Assembly (NCBI GenBank): GCA_027488905.1
Contig: JAIYAT010000020.1
Coordinates: 246,490 to 310,489, forward strand
Reading direction: 5' to 3'
Source: Bacteroidota bacterium
GTDB lineage: Bacteria > Bacteroidota > Bacteroidia > UKL13-3
DNA: 64,000 nucleotides
The translations under genes were made by a program, and so were the position numbers. Below the pieces are notes generated by a model, which was not told where the DNA came from, did not search any database, and worked only from the letters and a program-made list of their open reading frames with translations. Each line of letters starts with the position of its first letter. Position 1 is the first letter of the stretch. Below are positions 47,684-63,200 of the stretch, piece by piece.

Positions 47684-47749
47684 ATAAGGTTAATAATCCC
47701 TCAAAATGAAATTTGCAATTATCAAATCTGATTATATATTTGCCATCAA

Positions 47750-47800
47750 CATGCTCACCCCGCTTCCCGTAGAACAGCGCGCTCAGGGTGAGCTTTTTAT
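47750..47800 (+). terminator. Rho-independent terminator between hsdR and the Abi gene
   Basis: gctcaccccgcttcccgtagaacagcgcgctcagggtgagctttttattttt: a stem gctcaccc/gggtgagc followed by a T-run. Confidence 0.65.
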
Positions 47801-47812
47801 TTTTATAGAGGT

Positions 47813-48709
47813 ATGAGTAAAATTAACTACAATAAGCCTCCTCTTTCCTATACAGATCAAATTATCCAGCTAAAACAGCGTGGACTAATTATTAGCAACG
47901 AGCCTAAAGCACTTCACTTACTTGAGAATATCAGTTACTATAGGCTAAGTGGATATTGGTTTCCCCTTCTAGCTGATAAATTTGCTCATCAGTTCAAACC
48001 TAATTCCACTATTGAAACAGCTTTTAATTTATACTGTTTTGACAGAGAATTGCGTCAACTAATGCTTGCCGAAACTGAAAAAATTGAAGTGGCCATCCGA
48101 GCCAAATTGAGTTACGTTTTTTCGCATGCAAACGGCCCTTTTTGGTTTCAGAACCCAACTAATTTCACTAATCCTGGGAAGCATGCTACCTCATTTGCTA
48201 AAATTGAAGAGGAGTTTCAACGAAGTGATGAAGAGTTTATACATGCCTTTAAGGCAAAATACAATAATCCAATACCTCCCAGTTGGATGACATTGGAAAT
48301 AACATCATTTGGCACCTTATCCATTTTGTACAAGAACCTGAGACCTACCCATCAAAAGCGAGAAATTGCGCACTATTTTGGGTTGCCAGATAAAGTTTTT
48401 GAAACCTGGATTCACAGCATCGTTTACCTTCGTAATGTGTGTGCACACCACACCCGTTTGTGGAATAGAGCCATGAGTATTCAACCACAAATCCCAAGAT
48501 CACCGAGAAAACAATGGTTAAATAATGTAAATGTAGCTAATAACAGAACTTATTTTATTTTAAGTATGGTCGCCTATTTATTGCAAACCATAAATCCAAA
48601 CAATCGGTTTACTGATAAATTTAAAGCGCTTTTACACAAATATCCAAACGTAGATACCAGAGCACTAGGCTTCCCAATTGACTGGGAAAATGAACCACTT
48701 TGGAAGTAA
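47813..48709 (+). CDS. Abi_2 (AbiD/AbiF-like) abortive-infection family protein
   Basis: ...LENISYYRLSGYWFP... and ...YLRNVCAHHTRLWN match the conserved Abi_2-family motifs. Inserted between hsdR and hsdM. Confidence 0.7.
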   Translation: MSKINYNKPPLSYTDQIIQLKQRGLIISNEPKALHLLENISYYRLSGYWFPLLADKFAHQFKPNSTIETAFNLYCFDRELRQLMLAETEKIEVAIRAKLSYVFSHANGPFWFQNPTNFTNPGKHATSFAKIEEEFQRSDEEFIHAFKAKYNNPIPPSWMTLEITSFGTLSILYKNLRPTHQKREIAHYFGLPDKVFETWIHSIVYLRNVCAHHTRLWNRAMSIQPQIPRSPRKQWLNNVNVANNRTYFILSMVAYLLQTINPNNRFTDKFKALLHKYPNVDTRALGFPIDWENEPLWK

Positions 48710-48721
48710 CAAACAAATCAT

Positions 48722-50158
48722 ATGAGCAACATATCAGGCATCATAAAAAGCATTCAAAACATCATGTGGCAAGACACTGGCTTAAATGGCGATGCACAAC
48801 GCATTGAGCAATTGGGCTGGATGCTTTTTTTGAAAATATTTTCGGACAAAGACAAAGAATTAGAGTTACTAGACGACAAATACACCTCCCCCATCCCTGA
48901 TAAATTTCATTGGGTAAAAGAAAAAGGAAATTGGGCAGGTGATGATGAAGGAATGACAGGCGATGAATTGTTGGAGTTTGTAGACAGACAATTGTTTCCT
49001 GCCCTGCGCAATTTGGATTTGAGCACAGGGAACCAACGTGCAGTGATCGTACGAGAGGTTTTTGAAGGCAATAACAACTATATGAAAAGCGGCATCAACA
49101 TTCGCAAGGTGTTGAACAAGCTCAACGAAATTGATTTTAACATTGCCAAAGACCGCCATGCTTTTGGCGAATTGTATGAAACCATTTTAAAGGAATTGCA
49201 AAGTGCTGGAAAAAGTGGTGAGTTTTATACGCCACGTGCCATTACGCAGTTCATTACCGAAACCATAAATCCACAATTGGGTGAAAAAGTATTGGACCCT
49301 GCTTGCGGAACGGGCGGCTATTTGACTTGTGCCATTGAGCATTTAAAGAAACAAGCCAAAAATGTGCAAGAACGCAAAAGCATTGAAGACAATATTGCAG
49401 GTTGGGAATACAAACCTTTACCCTATCTGCTGGCAACAACCAATCTCATTTTACACGACATAGAAATACCCAACATCAAATTTGGCGATGCCTTAGACCA
49501 ACCCTTGAGTAACTTTACCGAAAAGCATCGGGTAAATGTAATATTGGCAAATCCACCATTTGGTGGCATTGTAGCCAATAACAACGAAACTAATTTCCCA
49601 CAAACGTATCGTACCAAGGAAAGTGCCGACTTGTTTTTGATCCTAATGATTCATTTACTAAAACAAGATGGACGAGCAGGAATTGTATTGCCCGATGGCA
49701 GTTTAACAGGCGATGGCGTAAAGCAACGCATTCGCCAAAAATTATTGGAAGATTGCAACCTGCATACCATTATCCGTTTGCCTAATTCTGTGTTTCAGCC
49801 TTATGCAATGGTGGCTACCAACTTATTATTTTTTGACAAAGGTTTGCCCACCAAAGACATTTGGTACTATGAGCACCGCATGCCTGAAGGTTACAAATCC
49901 TACAACAAAACAAGACCCATACAAGCCAAAGAGTTTGAACCCATAACCCAATGGTGGAACAAGCGCACCGAAAGCGATATTGCCTGGAAAGTAAATATTA
50001 AAACCATCATCCAAAGAGGCTATGATTTGGATATAAAAAACCCAACCAAACCCGAAGAGGAAAAGGAATACAACAGTGCCGAATTGATGGAAATGCTACA
50101 CACTTCATTTGAGAAAAGTAATTTCTTGTTGAACCAATTAAAACAAGCGGTGAAATGA
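48722..50158 (+). CDS. hsdM: Type I restriction-modification N6-adenine DNA methyltransferase subunit
   Basis: N-terminal HsdM domain (IMWQDTGLNGDAQRIEQLGWMLFLKIF). SAM-binding LDPACGTGG. Catalytic ILANPPFG. Confidence 0.9.
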   Translation: MSNISGIIKSIQNIMWQDTGLNGDAQRIEQLGWMLFLKIFSDKDKELELLDDKYTSPIPDKFHWVKEKGNWAGDDEGMTGDELLEFVDRQLFPALRNLDLSTGNQRAVIVREVFEGNNNYMKSGINIRKVLNKLNEIDFNIAKDRHAFGELYETILKELQSAGKSGEFYTPRAITQFITETINPQLGEKVLDPACGTGGYLTCAIEHLKKQAKNVQERKSIEDNIAGWEYKPLPYLLATTNLILHDIEIPNIKFGDALDQPLSNFTEKHRVNVILANPPFGGIVANNNETNFPQTYRTKESADLFLILMIHLLKQDGRAGIVLPDGSLTGDGVKQRIRQKLLEDCNLHTIIRLPNSVFQPYAMVATNLLFFDKGLPTKDIWYYEHRMPEGYKSYNKTRPIQAKEFEPITQWWNKRTESDIAWKVNIKTIIQRGYDLDIKNPTKPEEEKEYNSAELMEMLHTSFEKSNFLLNQLKQAVK

Positions 50159-51462
50159 GATTAGAATTTATTGAATTGCCTTTTCTCAGTTTAGGAACAT
50201 CAGGCAAGATTAGAACAGGTTCTGGCTTTAATTCTAGTGATTTTACAACTGAGGGAGTTCCCCTTATAAAAATTGGCAATATCAAAAACAACTTAATAGA
50301 TATCAATGATTGCTCATTTATTTCAGAAAACAAGAAGAAAATAAACTTAACCAAAGAAGATGATTTGTTAATTGCAATGCGAGGAGCCACAAGTGGTAAA
50401 CTTGGTATTGTTTCTAGCCAATTTGCTGACTGCTTTTATGTTGGAAGTATTGGTAATCTTGGAAAAATAAATGAAAAATTGATTTATCGTCCATTTATAA
50501 AATATATTGAACAACAATTATATGATATATTAAAGACCGAAGCAAAAGGAACTGCTACTCCAATGGTTTCAATTGGAATGTTAGAAAAATTCAAATTAAT
50601 TATTCCCAAAACGAAGGAACAACAAGAATATTTATTTGAACTTCTTGAAAGCAGAAAAAGACAAGTTGGCAAACTCTCCACCGAACTCACCCACCAACTC
50701 ACCCTCGTAAAAAAGCTCCGACAGCAATTATTGCAAGATGCAGTGCAAGGCCGTTTCGACTTCGCTCAGGGACCAGAGGAAGACGAACCAGCAAGTGAAT
50801 TGCTAAAAAAGATAAAAGCCGCCCTTCGACAAGCTCAGGGTACGAAAAAAATTAAAGAACTACCACCCATCAAACCCGAAGAAATTCCATTTGAAATACC
50901 TGAAAATTGGGTATGGTGTAGGTTGGGGGAGATAATCACACTAATATCTGGTCAAGACCTAACTCCTTCTGAGTACTCTGACAAAGACAATTTCGGTCTA
51001 CCTTATGTCACAGGTGCAAGTAATTTAGATAAGGGTAATGTAATTTTAAATAGATGGACGAATAATCCAAAATCAATTGCAATTGAAAGTGATTTATTAT
51101 TGACATGTAAAGGTTCAGGTGTTGGGAAAATGGCGATATTAAAAGAGAAGAAGGTGCATATTGCCCGACAAATAATGGCTCTACGAAGTAGCTTCATACC
51201 AAATGAATTTTTAAAAACCTTTTTGGAACTACAGGTTGAAAACTTCAGAGGGAAAGCTAAAAGCTTAATTCCTGGTATTGATAGAGATATTGTATTGACT
51301 TTAACATTTCCGCTTCCTCCATTAGCCGAACAACACCGCATCGTTCAAAAATTAGATGAATTGATGCAGTATTGCAATGAGATGGAAGCAAGCATCAAAC
51401 AAAGCCAAGCGCAAAATGAGAAGTTATTGCAACAGGTTTTGAGGGAGGCGTTGAGGAAATAA
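50155..51462 (+). CDS. hsdS: Type I restriction-modification specificity subunit
   Basis: 4-bp overlap with hsdM. Two target-recognition domains separated by conserved helical spacers (…LVKKLRQQLLQDAVQG… and C-terminal …LAEQHRIVQKLDELM…QVLREALRK). Confidence 0.85.
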   Translation: MRLEFIELPFLSLGTSGKIRTGSGFNSSDFTTEGVPLIKIGNIKNNLIDINDCSFISENKKKINLTKEDDLLIAMRGATSGKLGIVSSQFADCFYVGSIGNLGKINEKLIYRPFIKYIEQQLYDILKTEAKGTATPMVSIGMLEKFKLIIPKTKEQQEYLFELLESRKRQVGKLSTELTHQLTLVKKLRQQLLQDAVQGRFDFAQGPEEDEPASELLKKIKAALRQAQGTKKIKELPPIKPEEIPFEIPENWVWCRLGEIITLISGQDLTPSEYSDKDNFGLPYVTGASNLDKGNVILNRWTNNPKSIAIESDLLLTCKGSGVGKMAILKEKKVHIARQIMALRSSFIPNEFLKTFLELQVENFRGKAKSLIPGIDRDIVLTLTFPLPPLAEQHRIVQKLDELMQYCNEMEASIKQSQAQNEKLLQQVLREALRK

Positions 51463-51486
51463 CCAGTTGAGGTTTAAAAAAAATAT

Positions 51487-52092
51487 ATGCCAATATCAGT
51501 TCAAAAATTAGAAGACACCTTTCAATTAAAATATTTAAAAAGTATTAAATGGGGGAGCACATTTGTTGAAAATAAAAATGGTGTCTATATTATATCTTCG
51601 AGTAAAGACAAAGATTTCTTACCTAAGCATGATGTTGAGATTGTTATCAATGATAAACAGATTGATTTATGGTTAGCTAATGCACCAAACATACTTCTAA
51701 ATGAAAAGACACCTTCCAAAACAGATTTAATAAATCAGCTAAAGAATTTTTGGTTACCTGATGAAACAATACTTTATATAGGAAAAGCTGAAAAGCAAAC
51801 ATTATCAGAAAGAATAGGTCAGTTCTTCAATCATAAATTTGGCAAAAAAAGCCCTCATAAAGGTGGTTATTGGTTAAAACTTTTAAAAAATATAAATGAC
51901 CTTAACATTCATCTATATGAAACTAAGGAATCCCACATTATTGAAGAAGAAATCTTAAAAAAGTTTATAGAACAAGTCTCGGAACCAACAAAATTAAAAT
52001 TAATTGATAAGAACTTATATTTACCATTTGCAAATTTGCAATTACGCTCTGGAGTAATTAAATCACATGGACTTAAATATCATTACCAATGA
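51487..52092 (+). CDS. Hypothetical protein (possible divergent GIY-YIG-like nuclease)
   Basis: 201 aa, 25 bp after hsdS. Carries GVYIIS ... ILYIGKAEKQTLSERIGQFFNH, reminiscent of GIY ... YIG-x-NLxxRlxxH, but the GIY-YIG spacing is much longer than canonical, so this is weak. Confidence 0.3.
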   Translation: MPISVQKLEDTFQLKYLKSIKWGSTFVENKNGVYIISSSKDKDFLPKHDVEIVINDKQIDLWLANAPNILLNEKTPSKTDLINQLKNFWLPDETILYIGKAEKQTLSERIGQFFNHKFGKKSPHKGGYWLKLLKNINDLNIHLYETKESHIIEEEILKKFIEQVSEPTKLKLIDKNLYLPFANLQLRSGVIKSHGLKYHYQ

Positions 52093-52181
52093 AATGTATA
52101 AAATGTAAAATAAAGTGAAACAGAAATTAATAGGAATTGCCTGAGTTTACAAAAGTGGAGTTGACAAAATAAAAATAGCCT

Positions 52182-53279
52182 ATGAATAATAAACAAGCAA
52201 ACATATGTTTTTTATTGGGAGCCGGAGCTAGCTACCAGGCCTTGCCAGTTGTAAATGAGATTCCTAGAGAACTAGAAAAGATGATGGAATTTATTGTGAT
52301 TTTTGAGTTAAACAAATCTGCTCTAACCTATGATCCAATAAGAGACCAGTTAAATAATTTTTATTCAAAGTTAGAAGAAATAAAAAAGCACAGTTCTATA
52401 GATACATTAGCAAGGAAGTATTGGCTAAAAAGAGAAACATGTGAACATGGTACAAGCGAATATGTTTATTGGAATAAAGAATATGAATACATCAAAAGGA
52501 TTATAAGTTGTTTATTAACCTACCGTCGCTTAACTATAACTACATTATCTGATAATTTTTCAAATGAAATTACAACATTTGATAACAAGCAAAGGATGGC
52601 CTTTAAGCTTGATCCAAGATATGATAGTTTATTGGCATCTATACTAACCCCTAAGTTGCGCTTGCCAGAAAACATTAGCATTATATCTTGGAATTATGAT
52701 TTACAATTAGAACAGGCCTTTTCCTTTTATGAAGGCCAATCCGATTTAATTGAAGTTGGAAAGAAATTAAACATAGGTTACGAAACCCATGAGGAAAGTT
52801 CAATTATTAAATTAAATGGAACTGCTTGGTTTAATCCAGCAGGTTCAATACAGGCGTTTTATGAATACAACACAGAATCACATAACGTATTTTGGAATGC
52901 ATTAAAAGATTCTCACGATCCTAACATAAAAACAGGGATTAAGTTTTCTTGGGAACAGGACGAAATAATTTCACATTATAGAGAACTTGCAGCAAAAAAA
53001 ATAACTGAGGCAGACTTTGTTATTGTAATTGGGTATTCTTTTCCAATTTTTAATAGAGAAACAGATATTCAAATATTTTCAAAATTACCATCAAGTGCTA
53101 AATTAATCATACAAGGTCCTGAAGAACAAGGAAACAGAATTGTGAGTCAAATGGACAGTATTAAGAAAGGTTTGAGTAAAAAAACGAGTGTCGTTTCCAA
53201 CCTTGACCAATTTTACTTACCTAACGAATATTGGCAACCAAATAACTTGAGTTCAGCTAAAATCTATTCAGTTTTTTAA
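52182..53279 (+). CDS. SIR2-like (SIR2_2 / PF13289-type) domain protein, candidate NADase defence effector
   Basis: N-terminal ICFLLGAGASYQA (xLGAGAS NAD-binding). IISWNYDLQLEQAF (NYD motif). C-terminal DFVIVIGYSFPIFN (IGYS motif). At the position of the usual KLHGS catalytic His the sequence reads KLNGT. Confidence 0.6.
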   Translation: MNNKQANICFLLGAGASYQALPVVNEIPRELEKMMEFIVIFELNKSALTYDPIRDQLNNFYSKLEEIKKHSSIDTLARKYWLKRETCEHGTSEYVYWNKEYEYIKRIISCLLTYRRLTITTLSDNFSNEITTFDNKQRMAFKLDPRYDSLLASILTPKLRLPENISIISWNYDLQLEQAFSFYEGQSDLIEVGKKLNIGYETHEESSIIKLNGTAWFNPAGSIQAFYEYNTESHNVFWNALKDSHDPNIKTGIKFSWEQDEIISHYRELAAKKITEADFVIVIGYSFPIFNRETDIQIFSKLPSSAKLIIQGPEEQGNRIVSQMDSIKKGLSKKTSVVSNLDQFYLPNEYWQPNNLSSAKIYSVF

Positions 53280-53395
53280 GATTCAATTTAAGTTAAATTA
53301 ATAGAATTTATATATTCTAAGGAAATACAAGAAACAATTTCATTGATAGTAGTTAATTTAGCGAAAAATATTAGAAATGGAAATAGATTTATAAA

Positions 53396-53740
53396 GATAT
53401 TGGGGGCAGAGGGTCGAAATGTTACGTTTTGCAAAATTTTACCACGTCTAGGAAATACGCTAGCTGGGAAAGTCAATACTATTTTCCAAATTTTCCTGTA
53501 AAGGAAACAATGAGGAAAGTGTTATCAACAGATTAATAACTGTTGAAGCCTTGAAGTTGTGTTTGCGGATGTATTTTCTGAGCATATATAATGTGTTTAT
53601 GGATTTAAGTACAAAGATAACAATTTCTATACCTGAATTGAGTAGCGTTGCCTCCCTTATAAAAGGGTTAAAGCTTCGACAGAGCATGTACATTTCAAAC
53701 CTGCTACATACTATTTTACTAGTATCTGCCCCCTTTTTTT
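53396..53740 (+). ncRNA. Candidate structured ncRNA (retron msr/msd-like or DRT-associated) between the SIR2 and RT genes
   Basis: A ~470-bp non-coding gap. The GC-rich 9-nt inverted repeat GGGGGCAGA (53402-53410) / TCTGCCCCC (53725-53733) brackets ~315 nt and ends 18 nt before the RT start codon, like retron a1/a2 repeats. Internal hairpins include ttttcctgtaaaggaaa and cccttataaaaggg. The small ORFs 53288..53742 look spurious. Confidence 0.3.
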
Positions 53741-53751
53741 AACTTGATAAA

Positions 53752-55275
53752 ATGGAATTAGAAAAGTGGTTTAAAACAAAAAAGTATCCTCATATAGGTT
53801 TACCAATAACAATCAAAGATTATTATTGGGTAAAAGAATATGTTGAAAATTTTGATAAAGTTCGATGCCATAGTTTTCTTCCATTAATACATAAAATTAT
53901 TTTACAAAGAAGATTCAGAGCAGACAATTCTTTACCAGATAGAAACCCAAGTGGAAAGAGGAAAAGATTTATTGACAAGCCAAAAGTTCGAGATATTTTC
54001 TTCGCTTCACATTTAGATTCTTTAGTATTTTCAAAGTACAACGAAATATTGGCAACTGCATATGAAAGTTATATTGAAAATAAGAATTTCAATGAATCTG
54101 TAGTTGCATACCGAAAAATTTCAATTTCAAAGGGTTCTGAAAATAATAAATGCAACATTGATTTTGCAAAAACTACTTTTGAATTTATTCAAAAGAACAA
54201 TACAAAAAATCTTACTGCTATTGTTTCAGACGTTACTGATTTTTTCCCAAGTCTGAATCATAAAATCTTAAAAAAACAATGGACAAGTGTTTTAAACGAA
54301 ACTACTTTACCCAAAGACCATTATAATATATTTAAGGCTATAACTAATATCAAATACATTGAAGGCGACCAGTTATTTGAAAGTTATGGCAAAACTATGA
54401 TTGTTGAAAATGGTGTTCCAAACTCTTCAACTAAAACTACTTTTAAAAGGAAGGAAATAAAAAGTAGTAAACATTTTAAAGAAAAAAATTCCGTTGCTTA
54501 TTGTGAAAAGGATGAATTCCTAAAGAACAATTTAAATTTAATTAAATCAAAAAACAACATAGTTGGAATACCTCAAGGAAGTCCAATCAGTGCAACATTG
54601 GCAAATATCTATATGTTGGAGTTTGATCAAGAAATATTTGATATTGTTTCTTCAATTGGTGGATTTTACCAAAGATATAGTGATGATTTAATTATTATTT
54701 GTGAGCAACAATTTGAAGATGATATTATTAAACTAATCAGAGATAAAATTGATAACCTTGTTGATTTGAAAATAGAACCAAAAAAGACTAAGATCTTTCG
54801 TTTTGAGGAAGTAAAAGGTAAATTTATTGGATTTGAAATTGATGAAAAAACTAAAGCACCAAATCATAATAAAACACTGGCTTATTTAGGATTCTCATTT
54901 GACGGACAAAGGGTTTTGATAAAAACTTCTGGTTTTTCAAAGTTCTATAGAGCAATGAAAAGCTCGTTTAAAAAATCAACTTCTTTAGCAATACATAGTA
55001 AAAATCCCGACAGAAGTTTATTCAAGTCAAGGCTATACAAGCGATTTACCCATAGAGGAGCAAAACGAAAACTTATTTATAGACCATCAAAGGCAGACAA
55101 AAAAGTTTATGAAAAAACGAAAGAGTATTATTGGGGAAATTATCTTAGCTATATAAACAAAGCAAATGAATCAATGAAATCAATAAACGGTGACAATATT
55201 ATCAAAAGGCAAAGCAGAAAGTTTTGGAAGAAATTTAATGACTTAATGAAATTTCATGAATCAAGACTTAAATAA
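53752..55275 (+). CDS. Reverse transcriptase (defence-associated / retron-like RT)
   Basis: RT motif 1-2 RKRFIDKPKVRDIFFASHLDSLV. Motif 3 AIVSDVTDFFPSLNH. Motif 4 GIPQGSPISATLANIYMLEFD. Motif 5 YQRYSDDLIIIC (YxDD). Motifs 6/7 LKIEPKKTKIFRF. About 90 aa insertion between motifs 3 and 4. C-terminal ~140 aa extension. Confidence 0.85.
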   Translation: MELEKWFKTKKYPHIGLPITIKDYYWVKEYVENFDKVRCHSFLPLIHKIILQRRFRADNSLPDRNPSGKRKRFIDKPKVRDIFFASHLDSLVFSKYNEILATAYESYIENKNFNESVVAYRKISISKGSENNKCNIDFAKTTFEFIQKNNTKNLTAIVSDVTDFFPSLNHKILKKQWTSVLNETTLPKDHYNIFKAITNIKYIEGDQLFESYGKTMIVENGVPNSSTKTTFKRKEIKSSKHFKEKNSVAYCEKDEFLKNNLNLIKSKNNIVGIPQGSPISATLANIYMLEFDQEIFDIVSSIGGFYQRYSDDLIIICEQQFEDDIIKLIRDKIDNLVDLKIEPKKTKIFRFEEVKGKFIGFEIDEKTKAPNHNKTLAYLGFSFDGQRVLIKTSGFSKFYRAMKSSFKKSTSLAIHSKNPDRSLFKSRLYKRFTHRGAKRKLIYRPSKADKKVYEKTKEYYWGNYLSYINKANESMKSINGDNIIKRQSRKFWKKFNDLMKFHESRLK

Positions 55276-55468
55276 AGTGCCAATGCCAAAGCCATACATT
55301 TGCAAACCACAAAAGCCAGCCTTAATGCCAAAGCAACAAGGTAACGTACTCCTTCCCAACCGCAATACAGGATAAATTGAAGGCGAGTCTTTAATAAAAC
55401 CTGAAAGTATTGTAGTTGAATTAAAAAAAATAATATTTAAATTCATTACTTGCAATTTTTTATTTCTT

Positions 55469-56116
55469 TTGATTTTAAATCCTCATTATAATAAAGCAAT
55501 GACAAACAGGTCAGAAACCCTATGGGATAAGTCAAATATCTCCTTACTAAATTACCAAAAATTCATCAACAAAAAAGCAGATAAGTACCAACTTACAATT
55601 ATAGATTTGTTTTACATTTCTAACTTTAAAGGTGGGAATTCTACCATCAATGAAAGTGAAGAATTGATAAATAAGAAATTATTAAAATATAGTGAGCAAA
55701 TGAGGGAAATAGATAGTGATTTTGGTTCAACGCACCTTAAAGAACTTTCTAATGAATCACTGAATTCATTATGCAGGCAGGCAAAAGATATTCTGAAGAA
55801 TGGAGATGAAAATGATTTTGCCATAGATGGCTTTAAATCTTCCTTTATCGCTACTTTATTGCATGTGTATTTCCCAAATTTACTGCCAATACTAGATAGA
55901 AGGCTTTTGATAAACCTTGGTTTGGTAGAAGGAAGTGACCTAAACAATGCAAGACAAGTAAAAAATATTGGTGAATTTTACGAAAGGCTGATTAGGAAAT
56001 TTTACGATATCCAAGTTCAATCAGATAAATCAATTAGAGAAATTGATAGAGAATTTTTTATTATACAATTGCCAGATTGGGCAACAAAACCTAACAACTC
56101 AAAAAATGATGAATGA
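55469..56116 (+). CDS. Hypothetical protein downstream of the RT
   Basis: 215 aa, very AT-rich ORF with no recognisable motifs. Possible accessory component of the RT locus. Confidence 0.35.
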   Translation: MILNPHYNKAMTNRSETLWDKSNISLLNYQKFINKKADKYQLTIIDLFYISNFKGGNSTINESEELINKKLLKYSEQMREIDSDFGSTHLKELSNESLNSLCRQAKDILKNGDENDFAIDGFKSSFIATLLHVYFPNLLPILDRRLLINLGLVEGSDLNNARQVKNIGEFYERLIRKFYDIQVQSDKSIREIDREFFIIQLPDWATKPNNSKNDE

Positions 56117-56399
56117 TTACAGGAAGTTTTTATTAGAAGCTATCAAAGGACTTAAAGAGTCGCAGGAACTAATTTTTTCCAATGCCATTAACGTGGCAAT
56201 GAGTAGCGAGATGAAAGAATACGATGAACTTTTTGAATTGGGCGATAAATATGTATTTGACATCAAACAATTTGAAGATTCAAAAGATGCCAATGTTCAA
56301 CATTTAGTTACTTTGGTTAAATCTTTAAATTCGACATGTGATTCAATTATTAATATTAATGCGATCACAGATGAGGAACTTGAATCGATTGAAGAATAA
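56105..56399 (+). CDS. Small hypothetical acidic protein
   Basis: The likely start is MMNDYRKFLLEAIKG, overlapping the upstream stop by 11 nt (translational coupling). Internal start of ORF 56043..56399. Confidence 0.3.
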
Positions 56400-56420
56400 T
56401 TTTAATTGAAAACCTTAAAT

Positions 56421-56712
56421 AATGCCCCAGCGGGGCAACCTGTTTGTAGAACCGAAATAATCACAATTTAATTAGCTCCGTAGGAGCGACCTGTTAATAA
56501 TTACCAACAAACAGAACGCTCCTATAGAGCTGTAAAAGCAATAATTTATAATATGCCCCATCGGGGCTAATTGTTTGTAGAACCGAATCAATCACAATTT
56601 AATTAGCTCCATAGGAGCGGCCTGTTAATAATCCCCAATAAACAGAACGCTCCTATGGAGCTTTGTTTAAATACAAATCCTTTCCTACAAACAGGATGCT
56701 CCTATGGAGCTT
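56421..56712. repeat. Two tandem ~113-bp hairpin-rich repeat units (56421-56532 and 56552-56665) plus a partial third (56681-56712)
   Basis: The units are about 85% identical. Each contains the GC hairpins gcccc(a/t)(g/t)cggggc and (a/c)gctcc(g/a)taggagc(g) / cgctcctat(a/g)gagc, and the inverted pair ctgtttgtag...caaacag. Confidence 0.85.
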
Positions 56713-56923
56713 TTAAAAACGCATCTTACACGGTTTATTACCTATTGTTTCAGCCCACAACCACCCCAAAACCTTTGGTAGAAACTGTTTGGTTCAAACA
56801 AATTGGCGCTTTAGCTTTTCACATTTCTATGATTTAATTTTCAGGTTTTTAGGACAGTGAGAGGAGCGGTTTTAGCAATCTAGCTTAATTTGCATTAGGG
56901 GCAATTGTAAGAAGTCCATGGTC

Positions 56924-56993
56924 GATAGTCGATAGTCCATGGTAGCAGTGAATTGAACTATCGTCTATGGACTATCGACTATTGTCTATTGAC
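56924..56993. repeat. ~70-bp imperfect palindrome with internal direct repeats (tcgatag x2)
   Basis: gtccatggtcgatagtcgatagtccatggtagcag...ctatcgtctatggactatcgactattg: about 18 bp of the arms are exactly complementary (atggactatcgactat). Confidence 0.7.
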
Positions 56994-57257
56994 TTTGGTA
57001 CCATTTATTTTACAAAAAGGTTCTTTCAAAAATATGACCGTACCATTGATCAAATGGTGCAAGCCGCCAGAAGTGGCAAGCAAAATATTGTTGAAGCTAG
57101 CATGGCCTCTTGCACGTCTAAAGAAATGGAAATAAAATAAGCTAAACAAATAGTGACCAATGCGACTGCGGCGCAGTGGTGGCCACAGTCCCTAGAATTA
57201 GAAAACTACCAAAACTAATTAGCACGTAATAATAAGCAAAAAAAATAAACCCCCACC

Positions 57258-60200
57258 CTATTTCACCTCATACACCACAAACTTAATGCGCTCTTGGCTG
57301 CCTTCTTTTGTGGTAAGGGTTAGCATATAGTTACCTGCTTTTAGGTGGCCTAGCTCGAAGTTTTGGCTTTGGTTCAACCCGAAATACTTATTGCCTTCCC
57401 AAGCTAACCTACCCGCAATATCATAAACTGCCAATTTACAATCTCCAAGTTCATTTAGTGCCTTCACATAAAAGCTTCCGTCATTTGGGTTAGGATACAA
57501 TTGTAATCCTTGTTGCGCAAGGGCTTGGTTCAAGCCAACCGGATTAGGATTACAAATTGAATCGTCTACTACTTTTACCACCAAACTAAATGAATCGCGG
57601 CAACCCGCATCCGAAACACTGGTTAAGGTTACTTTGTAATTACCCACCTGATTATACTTTTTACCATAAATGGAAGTGTTCAAAACATCTGTGTTTCCAT
57701 CTCCAAAATCCCAAGTGGTGCCATTGATAAATCCTGAACCTATGAGGTAAGAAGCATTTACAAAATTATAGTTTTGAGTAAGCAAACATTCTACGGTATC
57801 TAAGGTTACAAAGCGCGAAACTGGTTTTGGTTTACCTGTATTATTTACTTGTAAAAACAAGGTATCAGAAATACTGCTGCAACCTTTTGCATCAATTGCG
57901 GCCAATACTACCGGGAAATTACCCGTAAAGGCATAGGCATGAAATACACTCGAATTTTTAACCAAAGGGGTTGAATACCCATCCCCAAAATCCCATAAAT
58001 ACTCAACGGCATTCGAACTTAAGGCATTAAATCTATATCCAGTATTACAAGGTGCACCCGTTTGTAAGGTAAAGGTAATGGCAGCACCCGGACCAGATTG
58101 GTCAATCACATTAATGTTTTTGCTAATCAACCTGCGACATCCATTGCTTAAGGCAACTTCTAACACAACTGGGAATACTCCGCCATTCTTATAAGTATGA
58201 CTAACATCGGTTGCAATGGAATCCTTACCATCTCCAAAAGTCCAAAAGTAGGAAGCGTTTAAGGTCGACTCGAAACTCAAGTTGGGTTCAAACTGAACTG
58301 TTTTAACACATGGCAATTGTGTGGCAACAAAATCTCCATTAACATCAGAGATGATAAAATTGGAAGAGAAGGTATCTGAACACAAGTTTTCAACTGCAAC
58401 TACTTTTAAGGTATGTTTTCCTTCACTTAAGCCATTTAAAACAAATGAGGTTCCTAACACTTGTGGGGCATTATTGTCTAAAATAAAATAAGTGTCTGTC
58501 ATGCCTGTACTTAAATTTACAAGCTGCCTGCTGTTTGAGCAAGTATCTGTAATGGCTAAACTAAAATCTGCTTTAGGACCATCAAAACCATACAAGGTAT
58601 CTAAAGAAGATAAAGAAGAACACAAGCCTTTTTTGGTTACCAATAACTGAACATACCCCGTATCTGTTTTGTCAAAGGCTACTCTTTGAACCCTCGTGCT
58701 GGAGTCTGTCCAATATTTTCTGTCTCCTAACCATAAGTAGGTGTAATCAGCGCCATTAACTAAAGGTGTGAGTGTAAATACATTTTGGCAATTGTTGGCT
58801 TGAACCAAGAAAGATGAATTGGGAGAATTAACAATTTCAATATTCTCTTGATACGTAAAAGTATCATTGATGGTAAGGCTAACTGCATAAACACCATCTG
58901 CTGCATACGTGTGTGAAGGAGAAGCTAAATTTGAAGTATCCCCATCTCCAAAGCGCCATTTGTAGGAAGTGGCTAGTATGGATGAATCTAAAAATTGAAC
59001 TGTTCTGTTGTTACAATTAAAACCCGTTACGTTAAAATTTGCTACCGGAATAGGCAATACTTCTATATTGGCAATGGCAGTATCCATGCAACCTGTAGAA
59101 CCTACCACGGCCAACATAACTTGGTATTTCCCAGGATTTGCAAACCTCCTATTAAAGACAAAAGAGTTTACCGAATCAATGGTACCATCCCCAAACAACC
59201 AACGATTAGAAACTACCCAACCAATGCCCAAAGAAGAACTGTTATTTAAGAAGTTAAAAGAATGGTCCACAAAATTTTGAATAGGGTCATTTGGCAAGAA
59301 AGAAGCAATTGGACCATAACTGCCAAATGGTAAGTTGATAGTTCTGGAAACCGTGCTGATACAACCATTTTTATTAGCAATTAAAATCACCGCTAAATCT
59401 CCTGTATCAGAAAATGTTTTAACAGGGCTCAAACGATTGTCGGATGTACCATCAGGGAAATTCCAAGTAAAGCGCATGGCGGTATCTGCGGCGCTTAAAT
59501 TGCTAAACTTAATTCTATTGCTGCAAGAATTTGGTGCAATGCCATAGGTAAAATCTATTGGCAATTGGGTTGAACCAAGTCCGGCAACAATAGGCTTCTT
59601 AATACTAACCGCACAACCACTTTCTGAGGTAGTGGTTAGAATTACGGTATCCACTCCAGGATTGATAAAATTAAACACTGGATTGGTAGCATTTGAACCT
59701 CCTTTTATGGGCGAACCAAACTGCCAAGCATAACTCATTCTAGCCAAAACATTGGTAGTGGAGAGGTTTTGAAAACTCACTAATTGATTGCAATTACTTG
59801 CTATAAATTCAAAATTTGGGGTAGGTATAGAAATATTAATAACATCTGCAACGGTATCTGCGCAATTGCCATTGTACACCGCCATTCTAATTAAATGGTA
59901 ACCAAAAGAAAGGTTATTAAGTGCAGCACTAGCACCTATTGAAACATAAGGCGCACCATCTAAACTATACGTATAAGATAACAAGCCAGGACTACTTAAG
60001 TTATTTATCACCCTGTTAGTAGAGCAATAGGTTTGCCCCACAGGAGGAACAACCTCAAAAGCTGCTGTGGCAGAAGGCACAAAAACAGCCGCATTAAAGG
60101 TTAAGGGAGTTGCATTGATTGGGCATCTTCCATTAGAGGCAACTTGAAGGGTAACGGTTTTTAATCCAGCACTACTATAACCCCTGCTGGGCACCCTGAG

Positions 60201-63200
60201 GAAAGTGTCACTTCCAAAACTGCCACTTGAAAATCCCCAATGGTAGTTGTATTGATTACTAATTGGCGCGCCAAAAAATGAATATACATTGTCACATGCC
60301 GCAACCGCAGATAGTGTTCCAACTACTGGCGTGGTAGCAACCGTAACCATTCTTTCACTGGAATCGGTTCCGTTAATGATTAACCTAACCCTGTAAATGC
60401 TATCCTTTGCATAAAGATGGGCTGGGCTGGCCAAGGTGGAAGAATCGCCATCGCCAAAATACCATTTGTAGGAAACCACCAAGGTGGAAGAATCTCTAAA
60501 TTGAACCAAGCGATTGCTGCAGGCGTTTTGAACAAAACCAAATTTTGAGGATACCACTGGGTAAACATTGATATTGGCTGTATAAGTATCTATGCAACCT
60601 AAGGTATTGGTTGCGCTTAAAGAGATTAAGTAATTGCCTGGAGAAGCGTACCTTTTGTCGTAGATAGAGCTGTTAGTTGAATCTAAAGTTCCATCTCCTA
60701 AATTCCATTTATACTTAATGTTCCAAGCATTATTCCCTAAGTGTGAACTGGTATTTACAAAAGAAAAATTGTGATTATTTATAGGCATGCTCACTTGGTT
60801 CAAACTAAACCTTGCGGCTGGACCAAAAGCGCCAGAATCTATTTGAATGATTTTAGTGGCAGTAGAACTACAACTACCATTGCTAACCGTTAGGTTAACT
60901 GTATAGGTTCCTAACTTAGCAAAACCATGTATTGGGTTTGCGAGGTTACTAGTAGTGGTATCGCCAAAATCCCAAGCATAAGAGAACCCAGTACCCGTGG
61001 TATTGGTAAATTGAATGATGCTTTTACAGGTTGTGCTTGCCAGACTAGTGTTAAAACTAGCATTTGGACCAGTACCCGTTCCCACCACAACTCTTCTTCC
61101 AATGGTGGCAGAACAACCACTAGTACTGGTTAAGGTTAAGAAGGCAGAATCTGCTCCCGAAACCCCAAAGTTAAAACTTGCATTTGGCGTATTGGCAGTT
61201 CCTTTGAGTGGTCTCCCAAAAAACCATTGGTAGCTTAACGCACCATTGTCTGTGCTAGAAGAGGTGGTTAAAAAATTAACTTGTTGGTTGCAAGAACTAG
61301 GAATTGCAATAAAGGATGGTATTGGAGCGCTAATGGTGAAAGGGAAATAAAGGGTATCAGAACAAAAGCTTTTGCTGCCCACCACCTGAATGAGGTGAGT
61401 GCCTGGTGTAAGTGCATTAACCGTGTCTAGGGCATTCAAAGTATCGAAAGGGCCATTGTCTATGCGCCACAAATAAAGGTTTGCGCCTACCCCATCGTTT
61501 CTAATGATTCGCGTTGTTGCACATAAGTTGTTATTTGGTGCATACACAACGGCTTTGGTAGAAAATCCATTTGGAGCGATGGTGGGTGTAAAAATAAGTT
61601 GCGAAGGAGAAATAGGACATTTGCCCTTATTGAAAACTGTTAGTGCTACACCCGTTGGGCCAGGCGTAGTATAGGAGCGTGTCGGAATTCTAAGGGTGGT
61701 ATCACTGCCTGTTCCGCCCGTAAATTGCCAATGATAGGTATAATTGTTTCCAGCAGGTGCGCCAAAGAAATTATATTCATAAGCACAATTTACTTGGTAA
61801 CTGATAGCAGCAACAGGCGCATGATTAATAATCTCGATGTTTTTACCCGCGGTAAGGTTTCCATTGATGGTGAGTTTAACCAAATAAATAGAATCTTTTA
61901 AATAGGTATGCACGGGGTTTCTTTGGGTTGAGGTATCGCCATCGCCAAACTCCCAAAGCCAAGAACCAGCAAAGTAAGAAGAATCTAAAAATTGAATGGT
62001 TCTGTTATTGCAACTAGGCGCTTGAAACCCAAACCTTGCATATACGTTTGGTTCAACCCGAACCCCTTTGTAAATAGTGTCTTTGCAACCCAAATTGTTG
62101 GTGGCAATTAAACGTACCCAATAATTTCCAGTATCAGGATACACTTTGTTATAGACAAAAGTATTGCTCGAAAAACTTCCATCGCCAAACTCCCATTGGT
62201 AATTGCTATTAAAGCCTGCACCGAGGTGTTTGCTGCTATTGGCAAAATCAAAAGATTGATTGGTGAAAAGTTGCGTATCTTGGTTAATACTAAAATTAGC
62301 AAACGGTCCTCTGGCTGCAGAATCTACCCTTATGGTTTGCAAGGAAGCGGTTGTACAAGTGCCATTGAAAGCGTATAAAATCACCAAGTAATTTCCAGTA
62401 TCTGCATAAGATTTAGCAGGATGGGTTGAAGTGCTAAAGGTGCTATCCCCAAAGTTCCATAAGTAAGAAGTAGCGCCATTGCTAGAAGTATTGGTAAATT
62501 GAATACGATTGTTACAAGGCTGATTGGCCTGCCAAACAAAGGATGGATTTGGTGTGGTGCCATTGCTTATGCTGATGGCTTTTCGGACGGTATTTGAACA
62601 GCCATTTGCGGCAGTTACAGTCAACGTAACCGTATCAATACCTCCGCTTCCAAAATTAAACAAAGGGTTAGGCAAAGTAGAAGTACCTTTTTGGGGTGAA
62701 CCAAAAGTCCAAAGGTAACTCAATGCTAAAGGCTCTTCGGCAAATGAGGTATTGGTAAATTGAACCGTGGCATTACACGTGCTCGCTTGCTCGTTAAAGG
62801 CAGCCGTGGTATTAGAAATCACAAAACTTGTTACCGCGGTATCAAAGCAAATTCCATTGTGTGCGGCTAAACGTAGGTGGTAAGTTCCTTTACTTAATCC
62901 ATTTAAATTGAAAGACGCAGTAATGGGTAAAAACGGACCGCCATTTACACTTAAAGTATAAGCAGATAGGCCGCTGCTGCTTGTATTGGTTATAATTCTA
63001 CTATTAGAACAAAAGTTATTTCCTGGTGCACTCACTGCAATTCCTGCTACCACAATTGGGGCATAAAGGTTCGGTTTGAACCTAAGCGCATTTGAAGCAA
63101 CTGAACAACGATTACCAGCCGTAAGGATAAGTTGTACTTGAGCTGTATCAGCAAGGAGATATTTTCGCGTGGCAAGTCTTGAGGAAGAATCAGAACCCGG

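What the first reader, a model, noticed from the sequence alone, without database searches (positions are those of the whole stretch)
53752..55275. Atypical RT architecture: large insertion between RT motifs 3 and 4 plus a C-terminal extension
Motif 3 (DVTDFFPSLNH) and motif 4 (GIPQGSPISATLANIY) are separated by roughly 90 residues rich in K/N/S, far more than in typical retron RTs. About 140 residues follow the thumb-like LKIEPKKTKIFRF segment. At 507 aa the protein is larger than classic retron RTs (~320-400 aa) but lacks a fused nitrilase or primase-type domain seen in some DRTs. This suggests an unusual RT clade.
Basis: seen in the sequence. Interest (0 to 1): 0.5.

Follow-up and report, generated by a model that had tools for sequence, protein, structure and literature searches.

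The report
Bacteroidota DRT2 reverse transcriptase defence system
The "atypical" reverse transcriptase is a long-form member of the known DRT2 anti-phage family, and the DNA just upstream carries the family's structured RNA, whose template should be copied into a repeated, stop-free toxic gene with a Bacteroidota-type promoter.

Summary
There are 101 residues between motifs 3 and 4, and 156 residues after LKIEPKKTKIFRF. Both oddities are hallmarks of DRT2 (UG2) reverse transcriptases. In solved K. pneumoniae DRT2 the motif 3-4 stretch is already 79 residues, a fingers element that anchors the ncRNA, and the thumb is a long helical bundle. This protein adds only +22 and +27 residues there. PADLOC Drt2 scores 460 bits. 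A confident AlphaFold model matches 9c0i at TM 0.84, and about 500-aa forms are common in the family. The roughly 340 nt upstream (53402-53740) is a conserved, covariation-supported ncRNA. It holds a 153-nt template (53476-53628) bounded by repeated ATAC. In 33 of 33 related loci the unit length is a multiple of 3 and its antisense concatemer is stop-free in one frame. That frame has a conserved ATG, and 29 of 33 loci carry TTTG-N20-TAnnTTTG across the repeat junction. So this is DRT2 "neo" gene synthesis, adapted to Bacteroidota. It is not a new RT clade. The neo logic of this branch appears not to have been described. No wet-lab evidence exists here.

The parts
53752..55275 (+). DRT2-family reverse transcriptase, 507 aa, stand-alone (no fused effector domain)
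   Evidence: ORF. PADLOC Drt2 PDLC03757 E=1.8e-138, 460.7 bits, residues 5-500. NCBIfam Drt2 339 bits, below the 390 cut-off. PDB best hits are KpnDRT2 9c0i/9lje, E about 1e-49. AlphaFold model pLDDT 87.6 matches 9c0i_A at E=3.2e-36, TM 0.84.
54229..54231 (+). Catalytic Asp D160 (motif 3), equivalent to KpnDRT2 D140
   Evidence: Alignment to 9c0i. Kpn triad D140/D269/D270 from PMC12596737. Invariant in 92 homologues.
54676..54687 (+). YSDD catalytic motif (residues 309-312), equivalent to Kpn YCDD 267-270
   Evidence: Y309 S310 D311 D312 invariant.
54262..54564 (+). Homologous to Kpn 151-229, which carries the ncRNA-anchoring loop B
   Evidence: 79 residues in Kpn, 101 here. Domain limits and loop B from PMC12596737. 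Confidently folded in model 2. No separate Pfam domain.
54391..54420 (+). Branch-specific +10 residues (214-223) just before the loop-B equivalent (224-236). Predicted to extend it into a beta-hairpin (strands 215-221 and 229-235)
   Evidence: Global alignment, DSSP of model 2, Kpn loop B residues S195-I206. The function is inferred.
54919..55272 (+). Long helical bundle plus a lower-confidence hairpin at 440-460. Kpn equivalent is 335-425
   Evidence: No separate domain found.
53402..53740 (+). Conserved structured ncRNA upstream of the RT on the same strand (about 340 nt). The ends are inferred from conservation and the outer helix, not from mapped transcript ends
   Evidence: 67-89% nucleotide identity over about 340-420 nt in 32 loci. 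Alignments. 67 pairs, 96.5% paired, 18 pairs with compensatory change against 7.5+-1.5 in shuffles (0/500) and 3-10 in slid controls. No Rfam family.
53402..53409 (+). Outer helix P1, 5' strand GGGGGCAG (pairs with 53726-53733)
   Evidence: Covarying variants GGGCCAG/CTGGCCC, GGGGTCAG/CTGACCCC, GGGGACAG/CTGTCCCC. Helix 1 (pair 12-364: GC 16, CG 8, AU 2, UA 2).
53726..53733 (+). Outer helix P1, 3' strand CTGCCCCC, followed by a T-run at 53734-53740
53412..53430 (+). Long-range helix P2, 5' strand (pairs with 53681-53701)
   Evidence: RNAalifold. 17 pairs, 98.2% paired, 4 with compensatory change.
53681..53701 (+). Long-range helix P2, 3' strand (conserved GCATGTACATT block)
53442..53468 (+). 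5' hairpin upstream of the template (possible counterpart of the Kpn '5' handle')
   Evidence: Helices 3 and 4 (pair 58-67: AU 17 / GC 16). The equivalence to the Kpn handle is inferred.
53476..53628 (+). Predicted template for rolling-circle reverse transcription, 153 nt (51 codons)
   Evidence: Bounded by repeated ATAC. Length 150/153/156/159 in 33 of 33 loci. The only repeat pair conserved in 33 of 33 in an unbiased scan. 5 of 5 indels are multiples of 3, against 0 of 6 and 5 of 16 in the scaffolds.
53476..53479 (+). ATAC-1, 5' end of the template (counterpart of Kpn ACA-1)
   Evidence: The jump itself is inferred.
53629..53632 (+). ATAC-2, just 3' of the template (counterpart of Kpn ACA-2), the proposed landing site of the cDNA 3' end
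   Evidence: Inferred.
53476..53628 (-). neo proto-gene: the antisense of the template. As a concatemer it is a stop-free ORF of 51 codons per repeat (MLRKYIRKHNFKASTVINLLITLSSLFPLQENLENSIEIVIFVLKSINTLY)
   Evidence: Open in the same frame in 33 of 33 loci. 0 stops there, against 20-213 in the other five frames. 0 stops in the 14-15 codons upstream of the ATG, against 28 and 82 in the other antisense frames.
53583..53585 (-). Conserved neo start codon (ATG on the minus strand)
   Evidence: Present at the same position in 33 of 33 loci. A-rich, SD-less leader: A at -3 in 30 of 33, A at -11 to -13 in 31-33 of 33, as described for Bacteroidota (PMC7366714).
53487..53490 (-). -33 element TTTG, near the 3' end of the antisense repeat
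   Evidence: Consensus from PMC7366714.
53612..53619 (-). -7 element TATCTTTG (TAnnTTTG), near the 5' end of the antisense repeat. It comes to lie 20 nt downstream of the -33 element only across a repeat junction
   Evidence: TTTG-N20-TAnnTTTG across the junction in 29 of 33 loci, one-mismatch variants in the other 4.
53460..53462 (-). In-frame stop (TAG) 13 nt beyond the template. It ends the ORF in the linear genome and is excluded from the concatemer
   Evidence: Same position in 32 of 33 loci. Linear ORF 53460..53693.

Best explanation
This is a two-part DRT2-type anti-phage system: a stand-alone reverse transcriptase and a structured ncRNA of about 340 nt encoded just upstream on the same strand. 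Shown by computation: the RT belongs to the DRT2/UG2 family in sequence and predicted fold; the ncRNA is conserved and has a covariation-supported structure; its central 153 nt are bounded by a repeated ATAC; and their antisense concatemer is a conserved stop-free reading frame with a conserved ATG and a promoter that is only assembled across the repeat junction. Inferred by analogy with K. pneumoniae DRT2: the RT binds the ncRNA through its enlarged fingers element and long thumb. It copies the template, and the cDNA 3' end (GTAT) re-pairs with ATAC-2, so synthesis goes round and round to make concatemeric cDNA. Phage infection triggers second-strand synthesis. The double-stranded repeats are transcribed from the TTTG-N20-TAnnTTTG junction promoter. 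Translation of the never-ending ORF yields a basic, hydrophobic repetitive Neo protein (51 aa per repeat) that arrests the cell. They are modestly enlarged in a Bacteroidota branch that also has a longer ncRNA and template.
For: RT family: PADLOC Drt2 460.7 bits, E=1.8e-138, next family 85 bits; PDB phmmer best hit KpnDRT2, E about 1e-49, next 1.5e-6; model 2 (pLDDT 87.6) against 9c0i_A E=3.2e-36, TM 0.84, next 4e-11; catalytic D160 and YSDD invariant. Family traits: long thumb and fingers insertion that bind the ncRNA (PMC12039810; PMC12596737). ncRNA: conserved in 32 loci; 18 compensatory pairs against 7.5+-1.5 in shuffles, 0/500. Template and neo: ATAC-ATAC distance is a multiple of 3 and the antisense concatemer is open in one frame in 33 of 33 loci; only candidate conserved in all loci; indels 5 of 5 multiples of 3; 0 stops in the neo frame, including the part upstream of the ATG; conserved ATG and Bacteroidota-type leader. 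Junction promoter in 29 of 33 loci. More distant relatives show the same logic, with a sigma70 TTGACA-N17-TATAAT across the junction in Psychrobacter. Positive control: the same scan recovers the 111-nt period and junction promoter in an annotated Photobacterium drt2 locus, matching the 111-nt cDNA listed for a near-identical V. splendidus ncRNA in Tang et al. Table S1. No neighbouring gene is conserved with the RT.
Against: No experimental data exist for this branch. cDNA, concatemers, neo mRNA and Neo toxicity are all inferred. NCBIfam's Drt2 equivalog cut-off is not reached (339 against 390 bits). The jump motif is ATAC, not the ACA of KpnDRT2, and the exact jump point cannot be read from sequence. 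Codon-position signals are weak: entropy 0.32/0.34/0.38, synonymous fraction 0.27 against 0.21 and 0.18. The most conserved Neo residues overlap the promoter boxes and RNA helices, so protein-level selection is confounded. A pseudoknot, which is defining for the Kpn ncRNA, has only invariant candidate helices here. The -33 element is reported as not generally detectable in Flavobacterium (PMC7366714), so the -7 box alone might allow some expression from the linear locus. The ncRNA's own promoter and ends were not identified.
Confidence: 0.85

Rival explanations
1. The RT and ncRNA make repetitive or single-copy cDNA, but the DNA itself is the effector or signal (as in DRT9 poly-dA or DRT10 tandem repeats). 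The antisense open frame would then not be translated.
For: DRT9 is the second-best structural neighbour (E=4e-11). Protein-level selection signals on the neo frame are weak. Literature on DNA-product DRTs appears.
Against: There are 0 stops in one antisense frame over 33 loci, against 20-213 in the others. All template indels are multiples of 3. The ATG, the Bacteroidota-type leader and a junction-assembled promoter are conserved. None of these is needed for a DNA effector. The RT is far closer to DRT2 than to DRT9. No SLATT or other partner gene is conserved.
Confidence: 0.06
2. The antisense ORF is an ordinary small gene (about 41 aa, ATG at 53585 to TAG at 53460) expressed from the linear locus using the -7 box alone, for example a toxin controlled by the overlapping ncRNA. 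No rolling-circle step would be needed.
For: A linear ORF exists (53460..53693), with a conserved stop 13 nt beyond the template in 32 of 33 loci. The -33 element is said not to be generally detectable in Flavobacterium.
Against: The 14-15 codons upstream of the ATG would be untranslated leader, yet they have 0 in-frame stops in 33 loci, against 28 and 82 in the other frames. The distance between the ATAC repeats is kept a multiple of 3 in all loci, which a linear gene does not require. A full TTTG-N20-TAnnTTTG arises only at the junction. The adjacent RT is a DRT2.
Confidence: 0.05
3. It is a retron: the RT with an msr-msd RNA whose ends pair (a1/a2), producing msDNA that guards an effector.
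For: The upstream ncRNA is closed by an outer helix (P1), which resembles a1/a2 pairing. Retron RT models do give weak hits, E 1e-11 to 1e-16.
Against: Retron models score 40-60 bits against 460 for Drt2. Retron structures are distant: E>=2.8e-4 by sequence and TM<=0.37 when normalised to the query. No effector gene is conserved next to the RT. The stop-free cyclic frame and junction promoter have no role in a retron.
Confidence: 0.02
4. It is a group II intron-type RT/maturase, or a degenerate remnant of one.
For: Public records name some homologues 'reverse transcriptase/maturase family protein'. TIGR04416 gives a partial hit of 70 bits. Group II intron RTs are structural neighbours.
Against: TIGR04416 scores 70 bits against a 300 cut-off. 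No intron RNA domain was found by Rfam. Group II intron RT structures match at only about TM 0.4-0.5. There is no maturase X or endonuclease domain.
Confidence: 0.01

Closest known systems
KpnDRT2 (Klebsiella pneumoniae DRT2: RT plus 280-nt ncRNA; PDB 9c0i, 9c0j, 9lje; Tang et al. 2024 PMC11100668; Wilkinson et al. 2024 PMC12039810; PMC12596737)
   Same: Stand-alone UG2 RT with the same motif order, an enlarged fingers element between motifs 3 and 4 and a long helical thumb (36% identity; predicted fold TM 0.84). The ncRNA is upstream on the same strand. The template is bounded by a short direct repeat, and its length is a multiple of 3. The antisense concatemer is a stop-free ORF with an internal ATG. 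The promoter halves sit near the two ends of the repeat and are joined only at the junction. An in-frame stop lies just outside the template.
   Different: RT 507 against 425 aa: +22 in the fingers element next to anchoring loop B, +12 in a palm hairpin, +27 in the thumb, and smaller indels. ncRNA about 340 against 280 nt, closed by two long-range helices. Template 150-159 against 120 nt. Repeat motif ATAC against ACA. Junction promoter TTTG-N20-TAnnTTTG (Bacteroidota) against TTGACA/TATAAT (sigma70). No Shine-Dalgarno, A-rich leader instead. Neo repeat 50-53 aa, hydrophobic and basic, with no evident sequence similarity. Pseudoknot not demonstrated. Below the NCBIfam Drt2 cut-off.
Vibrio/Photobacterium DRT2 loci (Tang et al. 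Table S1; annotated drt2 on plasmid pPHDD1, L080)
   Same: The same scan used here recovers their 111-nt period, cyclic antisense ORF and junction promoter. This shows the window's features are of the same kind.
   Different: Proteobacterial sigma70 promoter, shorter template, RT of about 430 aa that passes NCBI's Drt2 naming.
DRT9 (UG28) RT-ncRNA systems (PDB 9ioa, 9vma, 9nlv)
   Same: ncRNA-guided defence RT of similar size (480-500 aa). Second-best structural neighbour.
   Different: Foldseek E about 1e-8 to 1e-11 and TM about 0.4, against 3e-36 and 0.84 for DRT2. DRT9 makes protein-primed poly-dA and forms oligomers. No coding template.
DRT10 and telomerase (tandem-repeat synthesis from an internal RNA template)
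   Same: Repeat-addition synthesis from a template flanked by an alignment sequence. The ATAC-1/ATAC-2 pair plays the role of the telomerase alignment region (analogy drawn for DRT2 in PMC12039810).
   Different: Repeat unit of 153 nt that encodes a protein, not a short repeat of the kind telomerase adds (4-8 nt). No SLATT partner. Telomerase structures match only weakly.
Retrons (e.g. Ec86)
   Same: RT with an upstream structured ncRNA whose ends pair.
   Different: Much weaker sequence and fold match. No effector gene. The template carries a conserved cyclic ORF and a split promoter.

Membership tests
DRT2 (UG2) defence system | RT sequence belongs to the UG2/Drt2 family | tested here: met
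   PADLOC Drt2 PDLC03757, 460.7 bits, E=1.8e-138, covering residues 5-500; second Drt2 model 303.8 bits; next family (UG17) 85 bits. Best PDB sequence hits are KpnDRT2, E about 1e-49.
DRT2 (UG2) defence system | Passes NCBIfam NF041746 'antiviral reverse transcriptase Drt2' equivalog cut-off (390 bits) | tested here: not met
   339.1 bits, end-to-end match (6-497 to 1-414 of 416) but below the cut-off. This explains the generic names in public records. The model is built on about 416-aa forms, and the shortfall fits the extra loops.
DRT2 (UG2) defence system | Right-hand RT fold with an enlarged fingers element between motifs 3 and 4 and a long, straight helical thumb | tested here: met
   Predicted only. 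Model pLDDT 87.6. Foldseek to 9c0i_A E=3.2e-36, TM 0.84 over the whole Kpn chain. Domain limits from PMC12596737.
DRT2 (UG2) defence system | Intact catalytic triad (Kpn D140, D269, D270; YxDD) | tested here: met
   D160 and YSDD 309-312, invariant in 92 homologues.
DRT2 (UG2) defence system | Single protein gene: no fused effector domain and no conserved partner protein | tested here: met
   Only RVT_1 in Pfam. Segments searched alone are empty. The 201-aa, SIR2-like and 215-aa neighbours are found beside the RT in 0 of 79 loci.
DRT2 (UG2) defence system | Conserved structured ncRNA immediately upstream of the RT, same strand | tested here: met
   (96.5% paired; 18 compensatory pairs; 0/500 shuffles reach this).
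DRT2 (UG2) defence system | Template bounded by a short direct repeat (ACA-1/ACA-2 in KpnDRT2) allowing template jumping | tested here: inconclusive
   A repeated motif is conserved in 33 of 33 loci, but it is ATAC(C), not ACA. The functional equivalent is present and the literal motif is not. The jump itself cannot be tested here.
DRT2 (UG2) defence system | Repeat length a multiple of 3, with a stop-free antisense ORF across the junction (neo) | tested here: met
   150/153/156/159 nt. Open in the same frame in 33 of 33 loci. 0 stops against 20-213 in the other frames. Indels 5 of 5 multiples of 3.
DRT2 (UG2) defence system | Promoter reconstituted across the cDNA repeat junction | tested here: met
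   TTTG-N20-TAnnTTTG across the junction in 29 of 33 loci. It is of the host's promoter type, not sigma70 (consensus: PMC7366714). Activity was not tested.
DRT2 (UG2) defence system | Pseudoknot in the 3' scaffold wrapping the thumb | tested here: inconclusive
   Candidate helix 53642-47/53702-07 crosses P2 and is 100% paired but invariant (141/500 shuffles reach its covariation measures). A competing helix 53457-62/53643-48 is equally compatible.
DRT2 (UG2) defence system | Concatemeric cDNA, phage-triggered second strand, toxic Neo protein, phage defence | not testable with these tools
   Needs experiments. See next steps.
Retron | Retron-clade RT, msr-msd with a1/a2 repeats and a priming G, plus a cognate effector | tested here: not met
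   Retron RT models score 40-60 bits against 460 for Drt2. No conserved effector. The outer helix P1 is the only resemblance.
Group II intron RT/maturase | Passes TIGR04416, with intron RNA domains around the ORF | tested here: not met
   70 bits against a 300 cut-off. No group II intron RNA family in 51000-57500 even at E<=1.
DRT9 / DRT3 (other ncRNA-dependent DRTs) | RT of UG28 or UG3 clade | tested here: not met
   Drt3a models score 65 bits. DRT9 structures match at E about 1e-9 to 1e-11 and TM about 0.4.

The most novel reading that the evidence does not exclude
This large, mostly Bacteroidota branch of about 505-515-aa RTs may be a distinct DRT2 subtype whose neo genes have not been annotated. 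Published pipelines relied on the KpnDRT2-like ncRNA model, ACA motifs and sigma70 boxes. Here rolling-circle gene synthesis would use a different jump motif (ATAC, and TATTTC in sister clades), a 50-53-codon repeat encoding a hydrophobic, basic Neo, and a junction promoter that switches between the Bacteroidota -33/-7 type and the sigma70 type according to host. That would show the split promoter is re-tuned each time the module changes phylum. The enlarged anchoring-loop hairpin and thumb would have co-evolved with the two extra long-range helices of the ncRNA.
Probability: 0.55. Interest if true: 0.55.

Novelty: new member of a known kind. Interest (0 to 1): 0.38.

Why it matters
For the finding as written, this is mostly clarification. 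The odd-looking RT is a DRT2, and its two "anomalies" are the RNA-binding specialisations already seen in the solved K. pneumoniae structure. So no new RT class needs to be proposed. The added value lies upstream. De novo gene synthesis by DRT2 has been shown experimentally only in KpnDRT2-like (Proteobacterial) systems, and the authors reported that Neo annotation was harder in divergent clades. This locus and 32 relatives give a clean, testable neo prediction for a large Bacteroidota branch, including the genetically tractable Flavobacterium johnsoniae. They also suggest that the junction-split promoter follows the host's sigma-factor specificity. In addition, NCBI's Drt2 model under-calls this branch, so many DRT2 systems in Bacteroidota genomes are currently labelled only as generic reverse transcriptases.

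Tried and rejected
1. Rfam at a permissive threshold over 51000-57500 found nothing in the ncRNA region. The only hits were two spurious miRNA matches to downstream hairpin repeats.
2. A blind scan of the spacer for cyclic ORFs was uninformative, because much of the spacer is open on both strands. A cyclic ORF alone is common: 12 of 133 in-frame repeat pairs in the control. Comparative data were needed.
3. A strict ACA-to-ACA search failed even on the Photobacterium control and was replaced by an unbiased microhomology scan.
4. The first regular expression for the 3' motif was wrong and was fixed.
5. The first AlphaFold model, from 14 sequences, was poor (pLDDT 64.8, region 199-276 below 50). 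It was replaced by a 92-sequence model.
6. Codon-position entropy and synonymous fraction gave only weak support for coding. I do not lean on them.
7. Pseudoknot and basal-stem candidates are compatible but invariant, so they are left open.
8. No Bacteroidota-type promoter was recognised upstream of the ncRNA by eye. Its transcription start is unknown.
9. The neighbouring genes (201 aa with a weak GIY-YIG match, SIR2-like 365 aa, 215 aa) were tested as possible partners and rejected: 0 of 79 loci.
10. Searches of the papers and the held supplements for Bacteroidota DRT2 found nothing, but Table S1 is truncated in the held copy.
11. An earlier count of 18 of 33 loci with an open sense frame was a miscount. 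The correct figure is 20 of 33.
Full report
OBSERVATION. The ORF 53752..55275 (+) encodes 507 aa starting at an ATG. DVTDFFPSLNH is at residues 160-170, GIPQGSPISATLANIY at 272-287, YSDD at 309-312 and LKIEPKKTKIFRF at 339-351. So 101 residues separate motifs 3 and 4, and 156 residues follow the LKIEPKK... segment. K/N/S enrichment of the spacer is mild in a gene of 27-31% GC. Pfam sees only RVT_1.

WHAT THE PROTEIN IS. PADLOC's Drt2 model matches residues 5-500 at 460.7 bits (E=1.8e-138). The next family scores 85 bits, and retron models score 40-60 bits. NCBIfam's Drt2 equivalog matches end to end but at 339 bits, below its 390 cut-off. This explains why public records call the homologues generic reverse transcriptases. 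The best solved relatives are the K. pneumoniae DRT2 entries 9c0i/9lje (E about 1e-49), while the next hit, a group II intron RT, is at 1.5e-6. A first AlphaFold model from 14 sequences was poor (pLDDT 64.8). A second from 92 sequences is confident (pLDDT 87.6, pTM 0.82). It matches 9c0i_A at E=3.2e-36 with TM 0.84 normalised to the Kpn chain, and the next hit (DRT9) is at 4e-11 with TM about 0.4.

THE TWO 'ANOMALIES' ARE FAMILY TRAITS. [quoted passage not shown] PMC12596737 gives the Kpn domain limits: fingers 1-131 and 146-233, palm 132-145 and 234-334, thumb 335-425, catalytic D140/D269/D270. In the alignment, Kpn D140 to G230 (GIPQG) spans 90 residues and window D160 to G272 spans 112. That leaves 79 against 101 residues between the motifs, so only +22 are specific to this protein. 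Kpn 'anchoring loop B' (S195-I206, contacting ncRNA stem-loops 2 and 4) aligns to window 224-236. A +10 insertion (214-223) lies just before it, and model 2 folds the region as a beta-hairpin, 215-221 with 229-235. The thumb is 118 residues (390-507) against 91 in Kpn. The total excess of 82 residues is spread over about ten small indels plus a longer C-terminus. Residues 171-271 and 390-507 searched alone hit no domain. The spacer has many invariant positions across 92 homologues, so it is a folded, selected element. The long form is not rare. There are 807 50%-identity clusters at E<=1e-30, and of the best 150, 87 are 490-560 aa while only 9 are 400-440 aa. Close relatives (63-85% identity, 505-515 aa) occur in Flavobacterium johnsoniae, Kordia, Polaribacter, Dyadobacter, Pedobacter and many metagenomes.

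THE UPSTREAM ncRNA. DRT2 needs an ncRNA encoded upstream, so I examined the 472-nt spacer 53280-53751. About 340-420 nt directly upstream of the RT are conserved at 67-89% nucleotide identity in 32 loci. Rfam has no family for it. The alignment shows an outer helix, GGGGGCAG 53402-09 with CTGCCCCC 53726-33, with compensatory variants. It also shows a 17-pair long-range helix (53412-30 with 53681-701), a 5' hairpin (53442-68), hairpins inside the central region and a 3' scaffold. Over 67 pairs, 96.5% of cells are paired. 18 pairs show compensatory change, against 7.5+-1.5 in shuffles (0/500 reach 18) and 3-10 in slid controls. Two further helices are 99-100% compatible but invariant, so they remain undecided: a pseudoknot candidate 53642-47/53702-07 and a template-bracketing stem 53457-62/53643-48.

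THE HIDDEN neo GENE. In KpnDRT2 a 120-nt template flanked by ACA is copied round and round. The antisense concatemer is a stop-free ORF, and the sigma70 -35 and -10 boxes sit near the two ends of the repeat and meet only at the junction (PMC11100668, PMC12039810). Here a repeated ATAC lies at 53476 and 53629, 153 nt apart. In all 33 sequences the ATAC-ATAC distance is 150, 153, 156 or 159 nt, and the antisense concatemer is open in the same frame. The sense strand is open in 20 of 33. In an unbiased scan of all repeat pairs of 3 nt or more, this is the only pair conserved in 33 of 33 loci. All 5 distinct indels inside the template are multiples of 3, against 0 of 6 in the 5' scaffold and 5 of 16 in the 3' scaffold. 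The neo frame has 0 stops over the 33 loci, against 20-213 in the other five frames. An in-frame ATG (complement of 53583-85) is conserved in all loci. Its leader is A-rich with no Shine-Dalgarno sequence: A at -3 in 30 of 33 and A at -11 to -13 in 31-33 of 33. This matches what is described for Bacteroidota mRNAs (PMC7366714). The antisense junction reads ...ATTTGGAAAATAGTAT|AGAAATTGTTATCTTTGTA.... That is TTTG-N20-TAnnTTTG, the Bacteroidota -33/-7 consensus, present in 29 of 33 loci with one-mismatch variants in the rest. The repeat encodes 50-53 aa, hydrophobic (GRAVY +0.4 to +1.5) and basic (net 0 to +5).

CONTROLS AND RIVALS. The same scan applied to an annotated Photobacterium drt2 locus recovers a 111-nt unit with a cyclic antisense ORF and a junction TTGACA-N17-TATAAT. 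The period matches the 111-nt cDNA listed for a near-identical V. splendidus ncRNA in Tang et al. Table S1. There, 12 of 133 in-frame repeat pairs give a cyclic ORF by chance, so the argument rests on conservation, not on one sequence. A linear small-gene reading is disfavoured. The 14-15 codons upstream of the ATG, which would be leader in a linear gene, have 0 in-frame stops in 33 loci, against 28 and 82 in the other frames. A conserved stop lies 13 nt beyond the template in 32 of 33 loci. Weak points: codon-position signals are slight, and the most conserved Neo residues overlap the promoter boxes and helices. More distant relatives (37-50% identity) show the same logic with other motifs (ATACC 144 nt; TATTTC 150-153 nt). 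Two Psychrobacter loci rebuild a sigma70 TTGACA-N17-TATAAT across the junction, so the promoter type follows the host. None of the window's neighbouring ORFs recurs beside the RT (0 of 79 loci), so the system is the RT plus ncRNA alone.

COMPARISON WITH THE LITERATURE. Tang et al. built a tree of 2,116 DRT2 RTs. Their ncRNA model hit mainly the 539-member KpnDRT2-like subtree, and they state that Neo annotation in divergent clades 'was more challenging'. No Bacteroidota genus appears in the held part of their Table S1, which is truncated, nor in the Wilkinson supplements. A full-text search surfaced no paper combining DRT2 with Bacteroidota terms among the ranked results. So the RT family is known, and PADLOC's 502-position Drt2 profile already fits this length. 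The neo logic of this branch (ATAC motif, 51-codon repeat, Bacteroidota junction promoter) appears undescribed in the library I could search.

VERDICT. The finding is real but ordinary at the level claimed. It is a DRT2 RT whose fingers element and thumb are modestly enlarged, not a new RT clade. The locus is best read as a complete DRT2 system of a Bacteroidota branch, lodged in a defence island: HsdR 45272-47683, Abi_2 47813-48709, HsdM, HsdS, a SIR2-like gene, then the ncRNA and RT. All mechanistic steps beyond sequence and predicted structure are inferred from KpnDRT2.

Noticed in passing
window 45272-53279: The RT sits in a defence island. It contains a type I R-M system, HsdR (45272-47683), HsdM (48722-50158) and HsdS (50155-51462), with an Abi_2 (AbiD/F-like) gene (47813-48709) inserted between hsdR and hsdM. 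These are followed by a 201-aa ORF with a weak GIY-YIG match (51487-52092) and a 365-aa SIR2-like protein (52182-53279; PADLOC Aga_SIR2 5.8e-8).
   Followed up: partly
loci L001-L079 versus window 48722-51462: HsdM homologues lie within 4 kb upstream of the RT in 25 of 79 related loci, and HsdS in 15 of 79, although the immediate neighbours differ. DRT2-type modules seem to lodge repeatedly beside type I R-M operons in Bacteroidota.
   Followed up: partly
window 56415-56720: There are two tandem copies of a 117-nt unit (131-nt spacing, 87% identical) carrying hairpins built on GCTCCATAGGAGCG. This gives 5 matches in the window against 0 expected, all in this stretch. They produced spurious miRNA hits in Rfam. 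The element may be REP- or MITE-like and sits at the edge of the island.
   Followed up: partly
window 56912-56995: Imperfect palindrome with 29-31-nt arms (77-86% complementary) made of GTCGATA/GTCCAT repeats, in the spacer before the giant surface protein gene. Its function is unknown.
   Followed up: no
window 57258-63983 (-) and 42932-44659 (+): A surface protein of more than 2241 aa with PKD/He_PIG repeats (2638 aa on the Logan contig) and a 575-aa protein with a Por_Secre_tail (T9SS sorting domain). Together with the closest RT relatives, these point to a Bacteroidota host (Chitinophagales/Flavobacteriales-like).
   Followed up: partly
window 55469-56116 (+): A 215-aa ORF directly downstream of the RT has no family match in Pfam, PADLOC or NCBIfam, and no homologue beside the RT in 79 loci. 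It may be an unrelated, uncharacterised island gene.
   Followed up: partly
window 53710-53725: A 9-nt insertion (ATACTATTT) in the 3' tail of the ncRNA is present only in the window, L028 and L037. It creates a small local hairpin (ATACTA/TAGTAT) just before the outer-helix 3' strand.
   Followed up: no
loci L040, L049 (Psychrobacter), L065 (Moraxella), L044 (Carnobacterium): Long-form DRT2 relatives (about 40% identity) occur outside Bacteroidota. The two Psychrobacter loci have a sigma70 -10 box (TAT|AAT or TATA|AT) formed exactly across the predicted repeat junction.
   Followed up: partly
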